Positions 23,594 through 54,822 of a stretch of DNA of 54,822 bases are shown piece after piece. The stretch is from IMG/VR virus record IMGVR_UViG_2703718791_000011. One strand, written 5' to 3'. Numbering within the stretch: position 1 is the stretch's first letter; each line of letters starts with the position of its first letter. Below the pieces are notes generated by a model, which saw only the letters and a program-made list of their open reading frames with translations, ran no database searches and had not been told where the DNA came from. The translations under genes and the position numbers were made by a program. Source of the DNA: a virus. Taxonomy: Duplodnaviria > Heunggongvirae > Uroviricota > Caudoviricetes.

Positions 23594-24625
23594 ATGTCCA
23601 ATTTACTGACCGTACACCAAAATTTGCCTGCATTACCGGTCGATGCAACGAGTGATGAGGTTCGCAAGAACCTGATGGACATGTTCAGGGATCGCCAGGC
23701 GTTTTCTGAGCATACCTGGAAAATGCTTCTGTCCGTTTGCCGGTCATGGGCGGCATGGTGCAAGTTGAATAACCGGAAATGGTTTCCCGCAGAACCTGAA
23801 GATGTTCGCGATTATCTTCTATATCTTCAGGCGCGCGGTCTGGCAGTGAAAACTATCCAGCAACATTTGGGCCAGCTAAATATGCTTCATCGTCGGTCCG
23901 GGCTGCCACGACCAAGTGACAGCAATGCTGTTTCACTGGTCATGCGACGGATCCGAAAAGAAAACGTTGATGCCGGTGAGCGTGCAAAACAGGCGCTGGC
24001 GTTCGAACGCACTGATTTCGACCAGGTTCGTTCACTCATGGGAAATAGCGATCGCTGCCAGGATATACGGAATCTGGCATTTCTGGGGATTGCTTATAAC
24101 ACCCTGTTACGTATAGCCGAAATTGCCAGGATCAGGGTTAAAGATATCTCACGTACTGACGGTGGGAGAATGTTAATCCATATTGGCAGAACGAAAACGC
24201 TGGTTAGCACCGCAGGTGTAGAGAAGGCACTTAGCCTGGGGGTAACTAAACTGGTCGAGCGATGGATTTCCGTCTCTGGTGTGGCTGATGATCCGAATAA
24301 CTACTTGTTTTGCCGGGTCAGAAAAAATGGTGTTGCCTCGCCATCATCCACCAGCCAGCTATCAACTCGCGCCCTGGAAGGGATTTTTGAAGCAACTCAC
24401 CGATTGATTTACGGGGCTAAGGATGACTCTGGTCAGAGGTACCTGGCCTGGTCTGGACACAGTGCCCGTGTCGGAGCCGCGCGAGATATGGCCCGCGCCG
24501 GAGTTTCAATACCGGAGATCATGCAAGCTGGTGGCTGGACCAACGTAAATATTGTCATGAACTATATCCGTAACCTGGATAGTGAAACAGGGGCAATGGT
24601 GCGCCTGCTGGAAGATGGCGATTAG
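23594..24625 (+). CDS. cre: Cre tyrosine recombinase
   Basis: 343 aa; MSNLLTVHQNLPALPVDATSDEVRKNLMDMFRDRQAFSEHTWKMLLSVCRSWAAWCKLNNRKWFPAEPEDVRDYLLYLQARGLAVKTIQQHLGQLNMLHRRSGLPRPSDSNAVSLVMRRIRKE... matches Cre from memory. Confidence 0.97.
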   Translation: MSNLLTVHQNLPALPVDATSDEVRKNLMDMFRDRQAFSEHTWKMLLSVCRSWAAWCKLNNRKWFPAEPEDVRDYLLYLQARGLAVKTIQQHLGQLNMLHRRSGLPRPSDSNAVSLVMRRIRKENVDAGERAKQALAFERTDFDQVRSLMGNSDRCQDIRNLAFLGIAYNTLLRIAEIARIRVKDISRTDGGRMLIHIGRTKTLVSTAGVEKALSLGVTKLVERWISVSGVADDPNNYLFCRVRKNGVASPSSTSQLSTRALEGIFEATHRLIYGAKDDSGQRYLAWSGHSARVGAARDMARAGVSIPEIMQAGGWTNVNIVMNYIRNLDSETGAMVRLLEDGD

Positions 24626-25582: not shown

Positions 25583-26224
25583 TTAATCAGGTTTAACCTC
25601 TTTATAGAGAGCCTGAATGCGACAAACCTGCGAAGTGCTGTAGCCCGTTGCATCTGCTGTTTCTCTAATGCTGAGTTTTTTTACTTGTCTGTAGTACAAC
25701 ACTTTCTGATGACGTTCCTGATCGGCCTGTTTTCCCCGGTATTTACCCAACGTATGAGCTCGTTCAATTCCCTGTTTTTGGCGTTGGCGACGACTCAGCC
25801 AGTCCTTATGCGACATCGCGGCCATCAGGTCTATAAGCATATTATTTATTGCAGTTATCACTGCGCGGGTAATCGGATCTGATTGTGAAGGATCTTTATC
25901 TGACAGGGCTTGCCATGATGTTGGAACATCCAGACTGACAATCCGCAGTTCGTGTTGTTCTATCTGCTTTTTCAGCGTTATCCAGTCGCTGTTACTCAGT
26001 CGGGTCAGGCGGTCTATCTGCTCGACCAGCAAAATATCATTACGGTGACTGTCCATCAGTAAGCGTTTCAGTTCCGGACGGTCAAGTTTTGTACCGCTTA
26101 TGTTCTCCCGATAATAACTGGCAATTTTATGCCCCCGTTCTTGGACGAACTGTTCCAGCATCTCTTTTGCTCGATCTGCAAACTGATCTTCTGTTGACGC
26201 CCTTAAATAAGCTCTGATGAACAT
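25583..26224 (-). CDS. tnpR: TnpR serine resolvase
   Basis: N-terminal MFIRAYLRASTEDQ serine-recombinase motif, C-terminal HTH; start chosen at the ATG that has a GGTGA RBS. Confidence 0.8.
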   Translation of the reverse strand: MFIRAYLRASTEDQFADRAKEMLEQFVQERGHKIASYYRENISGTKLDRPELKRLLMDSHRNDILLVEQIDRLTRLSNSDWITLKKQIEQHELRIVSLDVPTSWQALSDKDPSQSDPITRAVITAINNMLIDLMAAMSHKDWLSRRQRQKQGIERAHTLGKYRGKQADQERHQKVLYYRQVKKLSIRETADATGYSTSQVCRIQALYKEVKPD

Positions 26225-26390
26225 TTTTTCACCGCATTGTCGCATTTAGGTTGTTGCATATATTCTATCGCATATAGGTTATGTCATTATTTGTATGAGG
26301 TCACATTTTATATCTCGCATCAGGGTGTACCCTTATGCAATAACCTTTTCATCAAAAATAATGTACTAAATAATTAACAAGGATAACTAT
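26225..26390. promoter_or_regulatory. Putative res site and divergent tnpR/tnpA promoters
   Basis: AT-rich divergent intergenic region with repeated GCATATA-like motifs; position as in Tn3-family elements. Confidence 0.5.
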
Positions 26391-31637: not shown

Positions 31638-32146
31638 TGAATATATATATCGCATGCGCTTTAACTCATGTTCCAAGGGAAATTTTCCATGAGTACAGTA
31701 ATTGGATTCACAGCCTTGCAAAAGGTTTATCTCAAAATAACAACGTAAAATATGCTTTGATAAATAGTGACCCAGAATTATCAAAGCGCCCTGAAAGTAA
31801 CAAATCTAGACTTTGTTACATTTGGGACAGAGATATGGTTGAGAAATCTGATGTAATAATTGCAGAATGTAGTTTTCCATCAACAGGGCTAGGAATAGAG
31901 TTGCAGATTGCTGAACAGAAGAACATTCCTGTAATCATCTGTTATAAAGATTATGGGATAAATAAAACTAAAACCATTGAATACGTGAATCCAGATGAGA
32001 CTACCCATAATCTACAAGTTGGCGAGGGTTTCATTTCTCATATGGTATTAGGACTACCAAACATCCTTGATGTCATATTATGTAAAGATATTGATAACAC
32101 ATGCAGGAAGCTAAAAATACTGTTAGATATGATTAACCATAATTAA
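31637..32146 (+). CDS. Cargo gene B: 169-aa protein with nucleoside 2-deoxyribosyltransferase / DNPH1 / TIR-like flavodoxin-fold signature
   Basis: N-terminal MNIYIACALTH and core DVIIAECSFPSTGLGIELQIAEQKNIPVI resemble the NDT-family pattern with a conserved Glu; start overlaps the stop of gene A (TAATG). Confidence 0.55.
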   Translation: MNIYIACALTHVPREIFHEYSNWIHSLAKGLSQNNNVKYALINSDPELSKRPESNKSRLCYIWDRDMVEKSDVIIAECSFPSTGLGIELQIAEQKNIPVIICYKDYGINKTKTIEYVNPDETTHNLQVGEGFISHMVLGLPNILDVILCKDIDNTCRKLKILLDMINHN

Positions 32147-49674: not shown

Positions 49675-50040
49675 TTATGCTGCCTCTTTAATGTTGGCGG
49701 CTATCCATGCCGCCGTGTGCTGTTTAACCTGGTCCAGGTCGATGTATGTGCCAACATATTGACTCAAATCCTGCAAGGTACCGATAAATGCATCGGTGCT
49801 CTGATCGACGAATTTATCAGCCAGGAAATCAGCAACCAGTTTTGGCACACCATCATGTTCCGAAGGTTGTTTTTCCTCGCCACTACCACCGCCGGACGCG
49901 CCGTACCCCATCTGTTGCATGATCTGGTCGATTTCATCGCTGATATCCAGCAACTCCATGCCACTCGCGGTAGCCGCTTTGGACATCAGAGCATCCAACT
50001 TATCGCTGAGATCCATTAACTCAATAGCTGATAGTGTCAT
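49675..50040 (-). CDS. ddrA: DdrA-like protein (121 aa)
   Basis: Synteny and size. Confidence 0.55.
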   Translation of the reverse strand: MTLSAIELMDLSDKLDALMSKAATASGMELLDISDEIDQIMQQMGYGASGGGSGEEKQPSEHDGVPKLVADFLADKFVDQSTDAFIGTLQDLSQYVGTYIDLDQVKQHTAAWIAANIKEAA

Positions 50041-51956
50041 GCCGCTACCCCCGCTTTCTGGATTGCTACCAGCAGATCAGCCAGGTGGCGAGCAGCGCCA
50101 TTAACCAGCTCTTCGTTTTCCTCAAAACGCCCGGCAGCCTGAAGGGCTGCAATCGCTTCCCGGACATTGCCCCGGGCGTTACGGATCTCCGCCATGTCAG
50201 TGCTTTGCATATCCATCACGTTATTGAGATATTCAATGGCTTTATTAGCCTCTGCATCTGCTTCGCTAACCGTTTCATCAGGCTGTGCCGGGGCAGGTTC
50301 TGGCTGAGTAATCTCACCGACTTCGGCCTGCAATGCATTGATCATGCTCTGCACCATTTTCTCGGTGCCAGCGCCCCCCGGATACGCAATATTGGGGAAA
50401 GTTTTTTGAAACTGAGTTTTCAGCATTACGCGGAACTCGTCTGGTGAGCTGGTGGCCAGCTCCAGAGCTTTTTGTGCATATTTGCCAAACGGACCATTAG
50501 TAAGTGTCTTCGCCAAGAAGTCGAAAGAATCCTCGCGAGGCAATAACTTCAGGTCGTACTCACTCATTTGCTGATCAGAAAGCGGGGTATCGTAAGTAGC
50601 AATGCCGTAGCGTGCATATTCATAATATGGGTCACCTTCATCAGGGCGCGGCAGAATTGCTTTGTTACCTTCAGGTATTGCGCCAGGGGCCGCCGGACGC
50701 ATTTGCAGGGCATATCGATATGCACCTACAGAGACTTCTGGTTCAGGCGAAGAGCTACCGGTATCCTCCGCTGGTTCAGGTTCGACGTTTTCCGGTTTAT
50801 GTTCTTCTGGTTGGACCAGGTATTCCGATACATTACCCGCTTTATAGGCTTTAAACAGCTTGCCGATCGCATCTGCCATGTCCACACCCTGTATGGATTT
50901 AGCCTTGATCATGTACACGCTGCCATCCGAATCGGTTAACTGGATATACCCTTCACCGTCCTCAATGAATTGCTTCATTGATGCACCATTACTGAGCGTC
51001 ACTTCCCCGTTCATATGCATACGATTTTTGATACTTGCAAGGCGATCCGTCATCGCGCGAGAGTGTCCACCAGTCATCCCCGCAGGAGCAATGGTTTCGC
51101 GCCCACCAGTTCGATTGAGCTGATCAATCTCCGTCTGCAAACGCTCATTCTCTTCATAAAGAGAATCCGCTTCCGATGCAACAGCGTTAATTTTCTGCTC
51201 CAGATCTACCTTCTGCCCTTCTACCGCTGCCACCTGATCCGCGAGGTCGCTCATGGCATCCTCTTTCTGGTCACTGTCAGCCTGTAGTTGGGTTATTTCA
51301 TCAACCAGGGCTTTTTTCTTCTTCTGCGCACGCTGGAATTTTGCCGAGTTTTTCTCTGCAAGGTTGGCAAGTTTCATGGTGACCTGCGCCAGCGTCATAT
51401 CACGTCCACTCATCGGAGCAACGGTATGAGTAACGTCTTTTTTATTCAGTAAGAACTGGAAAGCAATCAGCGTATCGCTATTGGTGATCCGGTTTTCCGC
51501 TGTCGGGCTATGAAACAGAATGCTGATAGTCTGACCATCACTGAGCGGAATAATGGCTGGCAGGACCGGCAGCCCGTTAACGTTACGTGCCCGGCCAATT
51601 TCAGCCCCGCCGATCGCGCGTGCACCGTTCTGGGCCACATCCCCCGTTTTATCACTCCCCGCAGAGATTCCGGTACCATTCAGCTTCTGGTTTAATGCCC
51701 GGACAAATGCCTGCATGGTCCGGTGTAACTGCAAACGAGTAGAACTAATCGCCTCCAGTAAATCCGTAGCACACCAGTGGATCGGCGTGTCATAGAAGAA
51801 CGTAGCCTCGATTTCCTCCAGGGTGTTGGATTCCGTCATCAGATAGCGGTCCTCACCGGCCATTAATGCGCGATATTCATCATCAGTCACTGGCGGGGGA
51901 AGCACGTCAAGCCCAGGCTTGATCGTCACCCCTTTATTGATATTGAACTGTTCCAT
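50037..51956 (-). CDS. darA: DarA-like antirestriction protein (639 aa)
   Basis: Synteny and size; coiled-coil central region. Confidence 0.65.
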   Translation of the reverse strand: MEQFNINKGVTIKPGLDVLPPPVTDDEYRALMAGEDRYLMTESNTLEEIEATFFYDTPIHWCATDLLEAISSTRLQLHRTMQAFVRALNQKLNGTGISAGSDKTGDVAQNGARAIGGAEIGRARNVNGLPVLPAIIPLSDGQTISILFHSPTAENRITNSDTLIAFQFLLNKKDVTHTVAPMSGRDMTLAQVTMKLANLAEKNSAKFQRAQKKKKALVDEITQLQADSDQKEDAMSDLADQVAAVEGQKVDLEQKINAVASEADSLYEENERLQTEIDQLNRTGGRETIAPAGMTGGHSRAMTDRLASIKNRMHMNGEVTLSNGASMKQFIEDGEGYIQLTDSDGSVYMIKAKSIQGVDMADAIGKLFKAYKAGNVSEYLVQPEEHKPENVEPEPAEDTGSSSPEPEVSVGAYRYALQMRPAAPGAIPEGNKAILPRPDEGDPYYEYARYGIATYDTPLSDQQMSEYDLKLLPREDSFDFLAKTLTNGPFGKYAQKALELATSSPDEFRVMLKTQFQKTFPNIAYPGGAGTEKMVQSMINALQAEVGEITQPEPAPAQPDETVSEADAEANKAIEYLNNVMDMQSTDMAEIRNARGNVREAIAALQAAGRFEENEELVNGAARHLADLLVAIQKAGVAA

Positions 51957-51957
51957 G

Positions 51958-52569
51958 TTAATTTCCTGCTTTCAGTTGCTTAAGACGGCGTTTGAGTTCG
52001 CCATTTCGGGCCTTTTCGTTATTGAGTCGGCCTGTCTCCTTATCCAGCTTCGCCCGCAAATCAGTGATCTGCTGTTGATTGAAAGACACCGAGTTCTGCG
52101 CTGATTTATAAGCGGCAACCACCTGAGCATTCCGCTGTTTTGCCTCTTGCAGGCGCTGAAAGTTGGATTTTACTGCCGGTTTCTTGTCTACCGGATTGGC
52201 AACACGTTTCGCTTTGGCGATCAGTGATTTCTGGAATTTTGCGGAGTTTTTGCGGGCCGCTTGCCCCATGACGGTACCAAGCGTCTTGATATCCGGCGAC
52301 TGAGCGTTAGGAATAGCTTTTCCATTCAGCCTCACAGACGATATATCGCCAGTATCGTTTACCTGTATGGCAAGAATTTGTCCGTCGTTAAGAACCAGCT
52401 TTGCGGTTTTAACTTTAACGCCATCTTTCGTTGTTGCGCGGTTGCTGGAGTCAACCTCAATTACCGTAACACCGGTTTTATTGATCGCCGCGATAAGGGA
52501 TTTCAGCCCCTTTTCATTAACCTGGTCAAAATCGACCGTTGCATACTTATTTTTCGTCATCTGACACAT
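51958..52569 (-). CDS. Hdf-like protein (203 aa), upstream of darA
   Basis: Synteny; start may be at the internal ATG at 52557. Confidence 0.45.
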   Translation of the reverse strand: MCQMTKNKYATVDFDQVNEKGLKSLIAAINKTGVTVIEVDSSNRATTKDGVKVKTAKLVLNDGQILAIQVNDTGDISSVRLNGKAIPNAQSPDIKTLGTVMGQAARKNSAKFQKSLIAKAKRVANPVDKKPAVKSNFQRLQEAKQRNAQVVAAYKSAQNSVSFNQQQITDLRAKLDKETGRLNNEKARNGELKRRLKQLKAGN

Positions 52570-52990
52570 CCTGTGCGAGATTTATTACGTAACTTCTGCG
52601 GATTTGCTGAGTAACAGGGAAAATCCGATACAACGGGTTAATGAACGAGTCGCCATGCGTAACCATGACGTTGAAATGCCACAGTCGCTCTCCTTTACCC
52701 ATATATTCAGTGGGTATGTACAACCATTCACTGTTTTCGCCCTGTTCAGCCGACGTCAAACAACGTTGTTCGCCTTCAATCACTGTCGTCGGCTTCTGAA
52801 CATCGCGGATCCAATATCTGACCGTTGCGCCGCGCAAAAACGGGAATTTAGACCGGTATTTGAACGGCACCCGGATGAAACCCGGTTTAATTTCCACATC
52901 ACCAAGTTCTAAATGCGTGATGTCCTTGCGTTTTAGCAAATAGCGATCGGCTAAGGCTAACGCAAGAACGCATACACCCCAGCCAATCAT
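52547..52990 (-). CDS. LydB-like lysis regulator (147 aa)
   Basis: Synteny, overlapping starts/stops. Confidence 0.45.
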   Translation of the reverse strand: MIGWGVCVLALALADRYLLKRKDITHLELGDVEIKPGFIRVPFKYRSKFPFLRGATVRYWIRDVQKPTTVIEGEQRCLTSAEQGENSEWLYIPTEYMGKGERLWHFNVMVTHGDSFINPLYRIFPVTQQIRRSYVINLAQDVSDDEK

Positions 52991-53316
52991 TTCCCGCCTC
53001 CCTTTTTCACCAAACTTGTAAGAACATTCAGAATGCTATCGATATTCACTCGTTTCATCCCTGAAATCACCTCATGACCGTTATTGCTGGCTATCGTTAC
53101 CATTAAGTACGTAATTGATAACTCCCAGCCCTCGTGTTGCCCCAATAGGTACGCCACCGCGCCAGCTGTCACTGCAACAAAGATCTCCGTAACCAATCCC
53201 AACAAATTGCCAGACTGGCGACCGTCTCGGACATCCATCAGGAACGTGCCTATCCCACCAATTACTGAAAGCAGGAGCGCAATAGCAACTGGAGCTAATT
53301 CCTGTGTGTCAAGCAC
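52987..53316 (-). CDS. LydA-like holin (109 aa, multiple transmembrane segments)
   Basis: Hydrophobic segments LAPVAIALLLSVIGGIGTFL and IFVAVTAGAVAYLL. Confidence 0.55.
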   Translation of the reverse strand: MLDTQELAPVAIALLLSVIGGIGTFLMDVRDGRQSGNLLGLVTEIFVAVTAGAVAYLLGQHEGWELSITYLMVTIASNNGHEVISGMKRVNIDSILNVLTSLVKKGGGK

Positions 53317-53390
53317 AAGTTCCCTCCTACGTTGTCAGGAGGTAATGGTATGCAAAGTAACTTCTCAACCGGTTATGTTGCATAAGAGAC

Positions 53391-53654
53391 TTACCTATTC
53401 AACCGACTTTTGGAACCTTCAATAATAAGCCTGCTATTGGCGCTGAAAATAAGAACCATGCAGCTCTGAAGGCTTTCATTCATGTCCTTATATTCCGCGA
53501 GATACATGCCAATAAAGCCAGCAAGTACGGCGGAAATACATTCGGCCAGCAATTTCTTGCATGAAGACTCGTAACGGTTTTCACATAGCCCACTCAAATA
53601 CGAATACACCCCACCAAGAAGGGATAACATCACGATATGTACATAAAATGTCAT
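53391..53654 (-). CDS. Small membrane protein (87 aa), holin-like
   Basis: ORF track; two hydrophobic segments. Confidence 0.4.
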   Translation of the reverse strand: MTFYVHIVMLSLLGGVYSYLSGLCENRYESSCKKLLAECISAVLAGFIGMYLAEYKDMNESLQSCMVLIFSANSRLIIEGSKSRLNR

Positions 53655-53781
53655 TTTTTACCTATACAACAGTAAGTTGAACAACATTTGAGAACGGTAT
53701 GCACTTTGTGATTTCCACACACACTGGTTTTGTTAATTAAAACCTGTAGCTTGCAATAAATAACGATAGTGGGCAGAAAAT

Positions 53782-53966
53782 ATGCTAATAGGCTATGTAC
53801 GCATATAGACAAATGAACAAAACACAGCTATGCAGTGAAAAGCACTTGAAAGCGCAGGATGTGAGCTAATTTTTGCGAATAAGGCGAGCAGCAAAAAAGC
53901 TGGGCACCCTGGGTTAAAAAAGGTTCTGCGTATGCTTTCCAGAGGTGATACCCTAGTCTCGGACTA
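53782..53966 (+). pseudogene. Degraded N-terminal fragment of a Cin/Hin/Gin-family serine invertase (MLIGYVRI*TNEQNTAMQ*KALESAGCELIF...RGDTLV) with in-frame stops
   Basis: Own translation; matches the conserved invertase N-terminus MLIGYVRVSTN-QN--LQRNAL with two nonsense codons. Confidence 0.6.
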
Positions 53967-54089
53967 GGGACAACATTTCGAGAACAGTTTTCATTAGCGG
54001 TCAGCAGGCGCTAGATACATCGAATTGATGTGCCGCGCGATAAATGTACCTATTCTATCAAGATAAATTACACCGACGCGGCATTAGAA

Positions 54090-54473
54090 TTACAGCTCAG
54101 ATTGAGTTTGGCGCTTCTCTACAGGATGATAACGATAAATCGTCGATACACCGATATCGTAAATAATTGCCAACTGTTTCCTGCTGTAGCCATTTTCGAT
54201 CAACCTCGCTATTTGCTCATGTTGTTCTTTTGTCAACTTCGGGCGACGTCCGCCAATGCGTCCCTGTTCGCGTGCAGCTGCCAGTCCGGCCAGTGTTCTC
54301 TCAACAATTAATTCACGTTCCATTTCTGCTAAAGCACCCATGACATGAAAAAAGAAACGCCCCATGGGTGTTGATGTGTCAATACTGTCTGTCAGACTAC
54401 GGAAATTAACACCTTTTTCCCGCAACTCCTCTATAAGCGTGATAAGGTGTTTCATACTTCTGCCAAGCCTATC
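54090..54473 (-). pseudogene. cin: C-terminal two-thirds of a Cin-type DNA invertase (from ...DRLGRSMKHL to stop), 5' end replaced by IS
   Basis: Reading frame continues upstream of the listed Met as DRLGRS and then enters the IS end at 54474; conserved SLTDSIDTSTPMGRFFFHVMGALAEMEREL invertase core. Confidence 0.8.
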
Positions 54474-54822
54474 TGAACCGCCCCGGGTTTCCTGGAGAGT
54501 ATTTTATCTGTGAACTCAGGCTGCCAGATCATTATTTCCGATGGAAGCATAATAAGCTTTTTCTGCTTCTGCCGGAGGAATATGGCCCAGCCTTTCCAGC
54601 AATCGTCGATTGTTATACCAGTCCACCCACGTTCGTGTGGCCAGTTCCACTTCTGTCCGGTTTTTCCAGCTATTACGGTGTATTACCTCCGCTTTGTAAA
54701 GACCATTGATGCTCTCAGCCATCGCGTTGTCATACGAGTCGCCAGTACTCCCTGTTGATGCCAGTAATCCGGCTTCCTTAAGCCGCTGCGCGTAGGCCAG
54801 CGATACATACTGAGAACCTTTA
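54474..54822 (-). mobile_element. IS3-family (IS629/IS1203-like) insertion sequence, partial; contains the transposase C-terminus (54516-54822)
   Basis: End sequence TGAACCGCCCCGGGTTTCCTGGAGAGT...; minus-strand translation ...DSYDNAMAESINGLYKAEVIHRNSWKNRTEVELATRTWVDWYNNRRLLERLGHIPPAEAE resembles the IS3-family OrfB C-terminus. Confidence 0.8.

What the first reader, a model, noticed from the sequence alone, without database searches (positions are those of the whole stretch)
53655..54473. Invertase locus with convergent N-terminal pseudogene fragment and C-terminal cin fragment
The plus strand at 53782-53966 encodes a decayed invertase N-terminus (MLIGYVRI*TNEQNTAMQ*KALESAGCE...RGDTLV) with two nonsense codons. 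The minus strand at 54090-54473 encodes the intact-looking C-terminal part of a Cin-type invertase (DRLGRSMKHL...), now headed by an IS. Together the fragments roughly cover a full invertase but are in opposite orientation and only about 125 bp apart, pointing to an inversion or deletion event at the tail-fibre switch, or to remnants of two different invertase genes. The tail-fibre C-segment that cin normally controls is not in this window.
Basis: seen in the sequence. Interest (0 to 1): 0.55.

Follow-up and report, generated by a model that had tools for sequence, protein, structure and literature searches.

The report
Dead cin relic beside IS-broken Min invertase
This is the tail-fibre switch end of a P1-like phage-plasmid of the long-known p15B type: an old dead stub of the P1 cin invertase gene sits beside the Min invertase gene that replaced it, and here an IS629 insertion has also cut Min in half, which is ordinary decay and not a new mechanism.

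Summary
Both fragments are real, but they are not two halves of one broken gene.

- **The plus-strand piece (53782-53958)** is a pseudogene of P1 cin, codons 1-59. It is 88.7% identical in DNA to cin. The catalytic Ser9 codon is now TAG and Arg19 is now TGA.
- **The minus-strand piece (54090-54473)** is codons 64-190 of a different invertase, the p15B-type Min. It is 72% identical to Cin in protein and 100% identical in DNA to the intact 190-aa gene of many plasmids.
- **The arrangement is widespread.** The psi-cin, 131-bp spacer and min layout, base for base, occurs with min intact in 147 PLSDB plasmids and 172 of 5426 complete E. coli genomes. Coordinates in the P1 GenBank record reproduce it in plasmid p15B, sequenced in 1991.
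- **Origin.** It is the scar of an old replacement of a Cin/C-segment module by a Pin/Min-type module from a P2/e14-like prophage.
- **The only window-specific event** is an IS629 insertion after min codon 63. No searched record shares this junction. The window also begins with the other IS629 end, inside P1 gene 25, so it looks like a contig bounded by IS629.
- **No cix/mix crossover site** is in the window.

That psi-cin ends at codon 59 and min' starts at codon 64 is coincidence. Low interest; already known.

The parts
53700..53781 (+). Remnant of the cin promoter and leader region, between the lydC start and the psi-cin ATG.
   Evidence: About 90% identical to the region of P1 that carries the predicted P1cin promoter and the Shine-Dalgarno sequence. 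The -10 hexamer TAAAAT of P1 reads TAAAAC here. The promoter scan found no sigma-70-like site on the + strand.
53782..53958 (+). psi-cin: pseudogene of the P1-type cin invertase, codons 1-59 only.
   Evidence: 157 of 177 nt are identical to P1 cin. Ten codons changed non-synonymously and seven synonymously. The catalytic Ser9 codon TCA is now TAG (53806-53808) and the Arg19 codon CGA is now TGA (53836-53838). Homology to P1 stops after Val59. Pfam Resolvase positions 2-68 match.
53800..53871 (+). Counterpart of the Fis-dependent recombinational enhancer annotated inside P1 cin (cin nt 19-90).
   Evidence: The P1 record annotates the enhancer at 31678-31749, which is cin nt 19-90. Here 62 of 72 nt are identical. 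A 31-nt block (cin nt 64-94, window 53845-53875) is invariant in this psi-cin, in the pGA_Eco1 psi-cin and in P1. Function was not tested.
53951..53969 (.). Perfect 8-bp palindrome, CCCTAGTC-tcg-GACTAGGG, sitting exactly on the psi-cin breakpoint.
   Evidence: Read directly from the sequence. The left arm is the last 8 nt of cin homology (cin nt 170-177); CTA at nt 172-174 also occurs in the functional allele L018. The right arm carries A>G at 53963 in L002, L007 and L008, so the palindrome is not conserved.
53959..54089 (.). 131-bp spacer between the psi-cin breakpoint and the min stop codon.
   Evidence: It is 100% identical in more than 100 plasmids. 54023-54089 is homologous to the 3' flank of the invertase gene of a chromosomal P2-like prophage. 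53959-54022 matched nothing in the set it was compared with: the rest of the window and loci L001, L003, L004, L005, L006, L010 and L021. A weak terminator-like hairpin lies on the minus strand at 54084-54070. Rfam gave no match.
54090..54473 (-). min': 3' part (codons 64-190 plus stop) of the p15B-type Min serine DNA invertase. It lacks the catalytic Ser9.
   Evidence: 384 of 384 nt are identical to the 3' part of the intact 190-aa gene WP_001165547.1 in pD72-mcr1. Pfam finds Resolvase 73-144 plus HTH_7. It is 72% identical to P1 Cin.
54474..54822 (-). Right end of IS629 (IS3 family): terminal inverted repeat and the 3' end of orfB. It is co-directional with min' and runs off the window.
   Evidence: Starts TGAACCGCCCCGGG. 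99.1% identical to the annotated IS629 OrfB region of phage BP-4795. The OrfB C-terminus ORF lies at 54516-54722 on the minus strand. Identity with intact-min plasmids stops exactly at 54473.
1..27 (-). Left terminal inverted repeat of IS629, in the same orientation as the copy at the window end. It abuts a truncated P1 gene 25 (tail stability).
   Evidence: 1-27 reads AGTCTCCAGGATTTCCGGGGCGGTTCA, which is the reverse complement of the IS629 left inverted repeat (compare the IS end in L010). From position 28 the window matches P1 from 77429, inside gene 25.

Best explanation
The locus is the left boundary of the tail-fibre inversion module of a P1-like phage-plasmid of the p15B type, and it carries two unrelated lesions of different age.

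**1. Old event (inferred from comparison).** An ancestral P1-type module (lydC <- | cin -> cixL, C segment) was replaced by a Pin/Min-type module: invertase on the opposite strand, with its 5' end facing a multiply invertible M segment. The incoming block came from a P2/e14-like prophage tail-fibre end. The left crossover was illegitimate and fell inside cin. This left the cin promoter region plus codons 1-59 as a dead stub. The stub has since lost its catalytic Ser9 codon to TAG and Arg19 to TGA.

**2. Recent event (shown).** IS629 inserted into min after codon 63. The part kept in this window (codons 64-190) has the dimer-interface helix and the HTH DNA-binding domain but no active-site serine. 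It cannot catalyse inversion.

**Consequences.** Neither fragment can recombine DNA, and no crossover site is present in the window. If the M segment still exists beyond the IS, the host-range switch is frozen unless a resident invertase such as e14 Pin acts in trans. Cross-complementation within the Gin/Cin/Pin/Hin family is established knowledge and was not tested here.
For: - **psi-cin matches cin, not min.** It is 88.7% identical to cin over nt 1-177, and 64% identical to min over the 185-nt comparison. It carries two nonsense codons, one at the catalytic serine, and homology ends at nt 177.
- **min' matches the intact gene exactly.** It is 100% identical to the 3' 384 nt of an intact 190-aa invertase.
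- **The arrangement is common.** Window 53300-54473 is 100% identical to many P1-like plasmids, where min is complete and is followed by a mix-like site and a string of short tail-fibre-tip ORFs. The full arrangement occurs in 147 PLSDB plasmids and 172 of 5426 E. coli genomes.
- **It matches p15B.** The P1 GenBank record maps P1 31570-31832 to p15B 7147-7408 and cin nt 25-95 to p15B 6463-6533. That places the min stop at about 7011 and gives the same 131-bp spacer as here.
- **Published reports agree.** They equate these plasmids' inversion region and invertase with p15B Min (PMC5786510; PMC6906374).
- **A second lineage supports an old truncation.** The divergent P1-like backbone pGA_Eco1 has a longer psi-cin (cin nt 1-307) with different lesions, joined to the same spacer and an identical Min protein. 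The two psi-cins share derived substitutions at nt 22 and nt 51.
- **A plausible donor type exists.** A chromosomal P2-like prophage has the same invertase and invertible-segment layout, 90% identical, with homology running 67 bp past the stop codon.
- **The IS is IS629.** The IS629 end is 99% identical to an annotated copy. No record shares the junction.
Against: - The primary p15B sequence (X62121) and the papers of Sandmeier et al. could not be retrieved. Identity with p15B therefore rests on coordinates quoted in the P1 record and on secondary citations.
- The direction and mechanism of the old replacement are inferred, not shown.
- The first 64 bp of the spacer have no identified source.
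- psi-cin substitutions are clustered rather than uniform, which simple neutral decay does not predict.
- What lies beyond the IS629 copies is unknown. A deletion of the M segment cannot be told apart from a simple insertion.
Confidence: 0.9

Rival explanations
1. One invertase gene was split by an inversion or deletion at the tail-fibre switch, so that its N- and C-terminal halves now face each other.
For: The fragments are nearly complementary (codons 1-59 and 64-190), convergent and 131 bp apart.
Against: - The halves belong to different genes. psi-cin is 64% identical to the min 5' end over the 185-nt comparison, against 88.7% to cin over nt 1-177.
- The true min 5' end sits next to the same psi-cin in 147 plasmids.
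- The min' boundary is an IS629 terminus, not a crossover site.
- No cix/mix-like sequence is present in the window.
Confidence: 0.02
2. psi-cin is not mere debris. It is kept because a cis element inside it still works. Candidates are part of the Fis-bound recombinational enhancer, or a promoter that gives convergent antisense transcription into min.
For: - A 31-nt block (cin nt 64-94), overlapping the annotated P1 enhancer, is invariant in two independently decaying psi-cin lineages and in P1. Column shuffling gives P about 0.003.
- All 17 psi-specific changes avoid nt 1-21, 64-94 and 126-177; gap clustering gives P about 0.009.
- psi-cin persists unchanged in more than 140 plasmids.
Against: - Ten of the 72 enhancer positions are changed here.
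- The pGA_Eco1 copy has a 2-nt deletion inside the enhancer interval, which should upset Fis-site phasing.
- The predicted -10 has lost its final T, and no promoter-like site was found on the + strand.
- min carries its own enhancer homologue.
- Part of the conservation may date from when the gene was still functional, and high identity among plasmids may only reflect recent spread.
- The statistics are post hoc.
Confidence: 0.1
3. The retained min' fragment is expressed by read-through from the co-directional IS629. It would then act as a catalytically dead, site-binding protein, a dominant-negative regulator of resident invertases.
For: - An ATG-initiated 121-aa ORF (54090-54455) keeps the HTH_7 domain.
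- The IS629 transposase genes point into it.
- Gene callers report the same 121-aa product wherever min is disrupted.
Against: - No promoter or convincing ribosome-binding site lies upstream.
- Other plasmids lose min through unrelated lesions: IS26, IS629 at another site in the other orientation, and frameshifts. That points to loss of function, not to selection for a particular fragment.
Confidence: 0.05

Closest known systems
Min multiple-inversion region of plasmid p15B of E. coli 15T- (GenBank X62121; Sandmeier, Iida, Arber and colleagues, 1990-1992)
   Same: - The order is the same: lydA, lydC, a truncated cin 5' region, a spacer, then min on the opposite strand.
- cin homology stops at about cin nt 173-177.
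- The spacer length works out at 131 bp from the coordinates quoted in the P1 record.
- Plasmids 100% identical to this window are reported as 99% identical to the p15B min region (PMC5786510). An invertase of this type is reported as 98.5% identical to Min (PMC6906374).
   Different: Here min is interrupted by IS629 after codon 63. The M segment and its mix sites are not in the window. X62121 itself could not be aligned directly.
Cin / C-segment system of phage P1
   Same: - The backbone position is the same, directly upstream of lydC.
- psi-cin keeps the cin promoter region, the start codon and codons 1-59, which include the enhancer region.
   Different: - Only about one third of cin remains, and it has two nonsense codons.
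- cixL, which overlaps the cin 3' end in P1, and the C segment are both absent.
- The neighbouring invertase is on the other strand and only 72% identical to Cin.
Pin-type invertase modules at the tail-fibre end of P2/e14-like prophages (for example E. coli WS3294A, locus L004)
   Same: The layout is the same: an invertase whose 5' end faces a short invertible tail-fibre-tip segment. The invertase gene is 90% identical in DNA, and homology continues 67 bp past the stop codon.
   Different: The prophage copy is chromosomal and has no psi-cin. Beyond 67 bp its flank is host DNA next to gsk.
Other IS- or frameshift-inactivated invertases in P1-like plasmids (pSvP1, pTZ20_1P; loci L010, L011, L014, L016)
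   Same: Loss of the tail-fibre switch recurs in P1-like plasmids (PMC6906374). Independent lesions in min include IS629 at min nt ~108, IS26 at nt ~40, and frameshifts.
   Different: The insertion point here (after min nt 189) and its orientation were not found in any record examined.

Membership tests
Serine DNA invertases (Gin/Cin/Pin/Hin/Min subgroup of the resolvase/invertase family) | N-terminal catalytic domain (Pfam Resolvase) with the active-site serine (Ser9/10). | tested here: not met
   min' covers only profile positions 73-144 and starts at codon 64. In psi-cin the Ser9 codon is TAG. The intact relative meets the feature.
Serine DNA invertases (Gin/Cin/Pin/Hin/Min subgroup of the resolvase/invertase family) | C-terminal HTH_7 DNA-binding domain. 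| tested here: met
   HTH_7 matches at E 2.9e-15 over residues 76-118 of min'.
Serine DNA invertases (Gin/Cin/Pin/Hin/Min subgroup of the resolvase/invertase family) | Inverted 26-bp crossover sites (cix/mix/gix type, core AAACC-NN-GGTTT) flanking an invertible segment. | tested here: not met
   The 26-bp consensus gave no match at up to 3 mismatches. The core gave only two chance-level hits, far from the locus. A mix-like site lies 5' of min in the intact relative L001, at about 7895-7922. In the window that position would lie beyond the IS.
Serine DNA invertases (Gin/Cin/Pin/Hin/Min subgroup of the resolvase/invertase family) | Fis-dependent enhancer within the 5' coding region. | tested here: inconclusive
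   The min 5' region is absent. psi-cin keeps 62 of the 72 nt of the enhancer annotated in P1. Binding and function cannot be tested with these tools.
p15B-type Min region (psi-cin / spacer / min) | A truncated cin 5' region adjacent to the 3' end of min, in convergent orientation, with p15B's breakpoint and spacing. | tested here: met
   The breakpoint is at cin nt 177, against about 173 for the end of p15B homology in the P1 record. The spacer is 131 bp in both. The match is indirect, because X62121 was not available.
p15B-type Min region (psi-cin / spacer / min) | Multiply invertible M segment with several mix sites and alternative tail-fibre 3' ends. | tested here: not met
   It is not in the window. 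It is present in relatives 100% identical up to 54473.
   min' is 72% identical in protein to Cin and 100% identical in DNA to the Min-type gene.
IS629 (IS3 family) | Terminal inverted repeat TGAACCGCCCCGG... and the OrfB 3' end. | tested here: met
   99.1% identity to an annotated IS629 over 350 nt. The OrfB C-terminal ORF is present. The matching left inverted repeat is at window 1-27.
IS629 (IS3 family) | A 3-bp target duplication flanking a simple insertion. | not testable with these tools
   The other side of each IS copy lies outside the window. The two flanks that are available differ, ATC at 54471-54473 and GCG at 28-30. They are therefore not the two sides of one simple insertion.

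The most novel reading that the evidence does not exclude
The dead cin stub may be retained in p15B-type phage-plasmids because a 31-nt core of the old recombinational enhancer (cin nt 64-94, window 53845-53875) still binds Fis. It could then influence Min-mediated shuffling or min expression, as a cis element that outlived its host gene.
Probability: 0.08. Interest if true: 0.35.

Novelty: already known. Interest (0 to 1): 0.1.

Why it matters
It matters little beyond correct annotation.

- The cin-like stub should be labelled as the known psi-cin relic of p15B-type P1-like plasmids.
- The neighbouring gene should be labelled min::IS629, a truncated and inactive invertase, not a cin fragment.
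- This element has very probably lost autonomous tail-fibre (host-range) switching. It also carries an IS629 end in tail gene 25. Both fit the common decay of phage functions in P1-like plasmids.
- The comparative data illustrate that the invertase/tail-fibre junction is a recombination and insertion hot spot. There are at least three kinds of cin truncation and several independent min knock-outs.

Tried and rejected
- **Crossover sites.** I searched for cix/mix-like sites in the spacer and the whole window. The 26-bp consensus gave none at up to 3 mismatches, and the core gave only chance-level hits.
- **The same junction elsewhere.** I looked for the min|IS629 junction in PLSDB plasmids, in complete E. 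coli genomes, and in assemblies that carry the 121-aa min' ORF. It was not found. Eight places were read, and all have different lesions or N gaps.
- **Primary literature.** The p15B papers and the P1 genome paper are not held.
- **Known RNAs.** Rfam found nothing in 53300-54822.
- **Origin of spacer bases 53959-54022.** No match in the window, P1, the P2-like prophage or the other loci.
- **Gapless repeat search.** Only trivial hits. The 18/19-nt direct repeat at 53681 and 53970 has a 1-nt indel and differs among relatives, so I treat it as probably chance.
- **L019 as a possible Cin/Min chimera.** The 190-aa recombinase is simply Cin with the C segment in the other orientation, which changes the last codons through cixL.
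- **A single IS629 closing the window into a circle.** Judged unlikely. The window corresponds to P1 77.4-94.8 kb plus 0-31.8 kb and would lack the P1 plasmid and lytic replicons. The flanking triplets also differ.

Full report
**What is in the sequence**

The last 5 kb of the window is the dar/lyd operon of a P1-like phage-plasmid, on the minus strand:
- DarA, 50037-51956
- Hdf, 51958-52569
- LydB, 52547-52990
- LydA, 52987-53316
- LydC, 53391-53654

Directly upstream of lydC, on the plus strand, frame 1 of 53782-53967 reads MLIGYVRI*TNEQNTAMQ*KALESAGCELIFANKASSKKAGHPGLKKVLRMLSRGDTLVSD*.

On the minus strand, 54090-54473 reads DRLGRSMKHL...VEKRQTQSEL*.

From 54474 to the window end the sequence is the right end of IS629. 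It is 99.1% identical to the annotated copy in phage BP-4795, and its transposase lies on the minus strand.

**The plus-strand fragment is a cin pseudogene**

Aligned with P1 (AF234172), the window matches from the cin promoter region through cin nt 177 (Val59) and then diverges abruptly.

- Within nt 1-177 there are 20 differences (88.7% identity). Ten codons changed non-synonymously and seven synonymously.
- The catalytic Ser9 codon TCA is now TAG, and the Arg19 codon CGA is now TGA.
- BLASTP against Cin gives 49/59 identities, E 1e-34. Pfam Resolvase matches profile positions 2-68.
- The same stretch is 64% identical to the 5' end of the neighbouring invertase type over the 185-nt comparison.

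**The minus-strand fragment is Min, not Cin**

- The 384 nt are identical to the 3' part of an intact 573-nt gene in pD72-mcr1 (WP_001165547.1, 190 aa). The window keeps codons 64-190.
- Against P1 Cin this part is 72% identical in protein.
- The exact protein is the UniRef entry Q05517_ECOLX, 'DNA-invertase'.
- Published descriptions of plasmids that match this window call their inversion region 99% identical to the min region of p15B (PMC5786510). Plasmid MF510496, described in that paper, is 100% identical to the window up to 54473. A related invertase is reported as 98.5% identical to p15B Min (PMC6906374).

**The arrangement is common and old**

- Window 53300-54473 is 100% identical to dozens of P1-like plasmids from E. 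coli, Klebsiella, Salmonella and E. albertii. Identity always stops at 54473, where their min continues and the window has IS629.
- The whole psi-cin, spacer and min-3' block is present in 147 PLSDB plasmids and in 172 of 5426 complete E. coli genomes.
- In those relatives min is followed on its 5' side by a mix-like site and a run of short tail-fibre-tip ORFs, which together form the multiply invertible segment.
- The P1 GenBank record maps P1 31570-31832 to p15B 7147-7408, and cin nt 25-95 to p15B 6463-6533. Since min runs opposite to psi-cin, this puts the p15B min stop at about 7011 and the psi-cin end at about 7143. That gives a 131-bp spacer, exactly the 53959-54089 spacer here. This derivation is my own, from quoted coordinates; the p15B record and papers were not retrievable.

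**How the arrangement arose (inferred)**

- In P1, cin is on the plus strand and its 3' end overlaps cixL at the edge of the C segment.
- In the p15B type, the invertase is on the other strand and its 5' end faces the invertible DNA.
- That is the layout at the tail-fibre end of a chromosomal P2-like prophage. Its invertase gene is 90% identical, and homology continues 67 bp past the stop codon, to window 54023.
- The simplest reading is a block replacement of the Cin module by a Pin/Min-type module, with the left joint falling illegitimately inside cin.
- A more divergent P1-like backbone, pGA_Eco1, supports an old single origin. It has a longer psi-cin (cin nt 1-307) with different lesions: 2-nt and 9-nt deletions, and Ser9 intact. 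This is joined to the same spacer at about 85% identity, and to an identical Min protein.
- The two psi-cins share derived changes at nt 22 and nt 51 that functional cin alleles lack. The window lineage then probably lost cin nt 178-307 in a further deletion.
- Spacer bases 53959-54022 have no identified source.

**The window-specific event**

- IS629 sits after min nt 189 (codon 63) and is co-directional with min'.
- No plasmid or complete E. coli genome contains this junction. None of eight assemblies that carry the same 121-aa residual ORF has it either.
- Those assemblies show other, independent lesions in min: IS629 at nt ~108 in the opposite orientation, IS26 at nt ~40, and two frameshifts. 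Three more are only scaffold gaps.
- The window also begins with the reverse complement of the IS629 left inverted repeat (1-27). This abuts P1 coordinate 77429, inside tail-stability gene 25.
- Both IS ends have the same orientation. The window therefore looks like a contig bounded by IS629 and spanning the equivalent of P1 77.4-94.8 kb plus 0-31.8 kb.
- The flanking triplets differ (ATC and GCG), so the ends are not the two sides of one simple insertion. Whether the M segment and the rest of the phage lie on another contig or were deleted cannot be decided here.

**Function**

- Neither fragment can act as a recombinase. psi-cin is truncated and has a stop at the active-site serine. min' lacks residues 1-63, which include Ser9.
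- No cix/mix-like site occurs anywhere in the window.
- Rfam finds nothing in the region.
- The promoter scan finds no plus-strand promoter for psi-cin, and the predicted P1cin -10 has lost its final T.
- The switch is therefore dead or frozen in this element, unless a host invertase complements it. Such complementation is established for this family but was not tested here.

**Residual oddities**

- *Clustered substitutions.* Functional cin alleles are nearly identical to each other. The window psi-cin has 17 private changes, all within cin nt 22-63 and 95-125. A 31-nt block (nt 64-94), overlapping the annotated P1 enhancer, is invariant in both psi-cin lineages. Column shuffling gives P about 0.003, and gap clustering gives P about 0.009. 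This could mean that a cis element survives. Against that, 10 of 72 enhancer positions are changed, the pGA_Eco1 copy has a 2-nt deletion inside the enhancer interval, the tests are post hoc, and part of the pattern may predate pseudogenisation.
- *Palindrome at the breakpoint.* A perfect 8-bp palindrome (53951-53969) sits exactly on the breakpoint. One arm varies among relatives.

**Verdict**

The 'two different genes' alternative is right, and the 'split gene / switch rearrangement' alternative is wrong. The structure is the known p15B-type psi-cin/min junction with an ordinary IS629 disruption. Interest is low.

Noticed in passing
window 1-27 and 28-1500: The window starts with the left terminal repeat of IS629, in the same orientation as the copy at the window end. 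It abuts the middle of P1 gene 25 (tail stability), at P1 coordinate 77429. The window therefore looks like an assembly contig bounded by IS629, and a second phage structural gene is disrupted.
   Followed up: partly
window 53951-53969: A perfect 8-bp palindrome, CCCTAGTC-tcg-GACTAGGG, has its left arm formed by the last 8 nt of cin homology. It may be a trace of a fold-back or template-switch joining event. The right arm carries A>G at 53963 in several relatives, so the palindrome is not conserved.
   Followed up: partly
window 53681-53698 and 53970-53988: An imperfect direct repeat, ACAACATTTGAGAACGGT and ACAACATTTCGAGAACAGT, brackets psi-cin: one copy lies upstream of the cin promoter region and the other just after the breakpoint. 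It has a 1-nt indel and varies among relatives (53688, 53983). It is probably chance.
   Followed up: partly
window 53845-53875 (cin nt 64-94): A 31-nt block is invariant in the window psi-cin, in the independently decaying psi-cin of pGA_Eco1 and in P1 cin, while all 17 private substitutions of the window psi-cin fall in nt 22-63 and 95-125. The pseudogene is not decaying uniformly.
   Followed up: partly
L005 (pGA_Eco1, NZ_CP093921.1) 3000-3440: A divergent P1-like backbone carries a longer psi-cin (cin nt 1-307, with 2-nt and 9-nt deletions and Ser9 intact). It sits next to the same spacer and an identical Min protein. L022, on the same backbone type, has an intact cin instead.
   Followed up: yes
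L021 (pXH989-OQX, NZ_CP102677.1) from about 815: A third kind of cin truncation. The gene matches cin up to about nt 120-150 and then diverges. A 'glycine-rich domain-containing protein' gene lies about 0.5 kb further on, on the opposite strand.
   Followed up: no
L006 (E. coli H8 plasmid A) min gene, equivalent to window 54264-54471: psi-cin and the spacer are the same, but min carries 18 substitutions from window-equivalent 54264 onward. This is a different min allele, and it implies a recombination breakpoint inside the invertase gene.
   Followed up: no
L010, L011, L014, L016 (draft assemblies carrying the 121-aa min' ORF): min has been inactivated independently several times in P1-like plasmids: IS629 at min nt ~108 in the opposite orientation, IS26 at nt ~40, and two frameshifts. 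The index lists the 121-aa residual ORF in 74 blocks of the collection, though some of these are only scaffold gaps.
   Followed up: partly
window 25583-26245 (-): A second, unrelated serine recombinase ORF of 220 aa (Pfam Resolvase plus an HTH; 26% identical to Min) lies about 1 kb past the 343-aa ORF (23594-24625) that I took for cre from its length and position. I did not recall such a gene at this position in P1.
   Followed up: no
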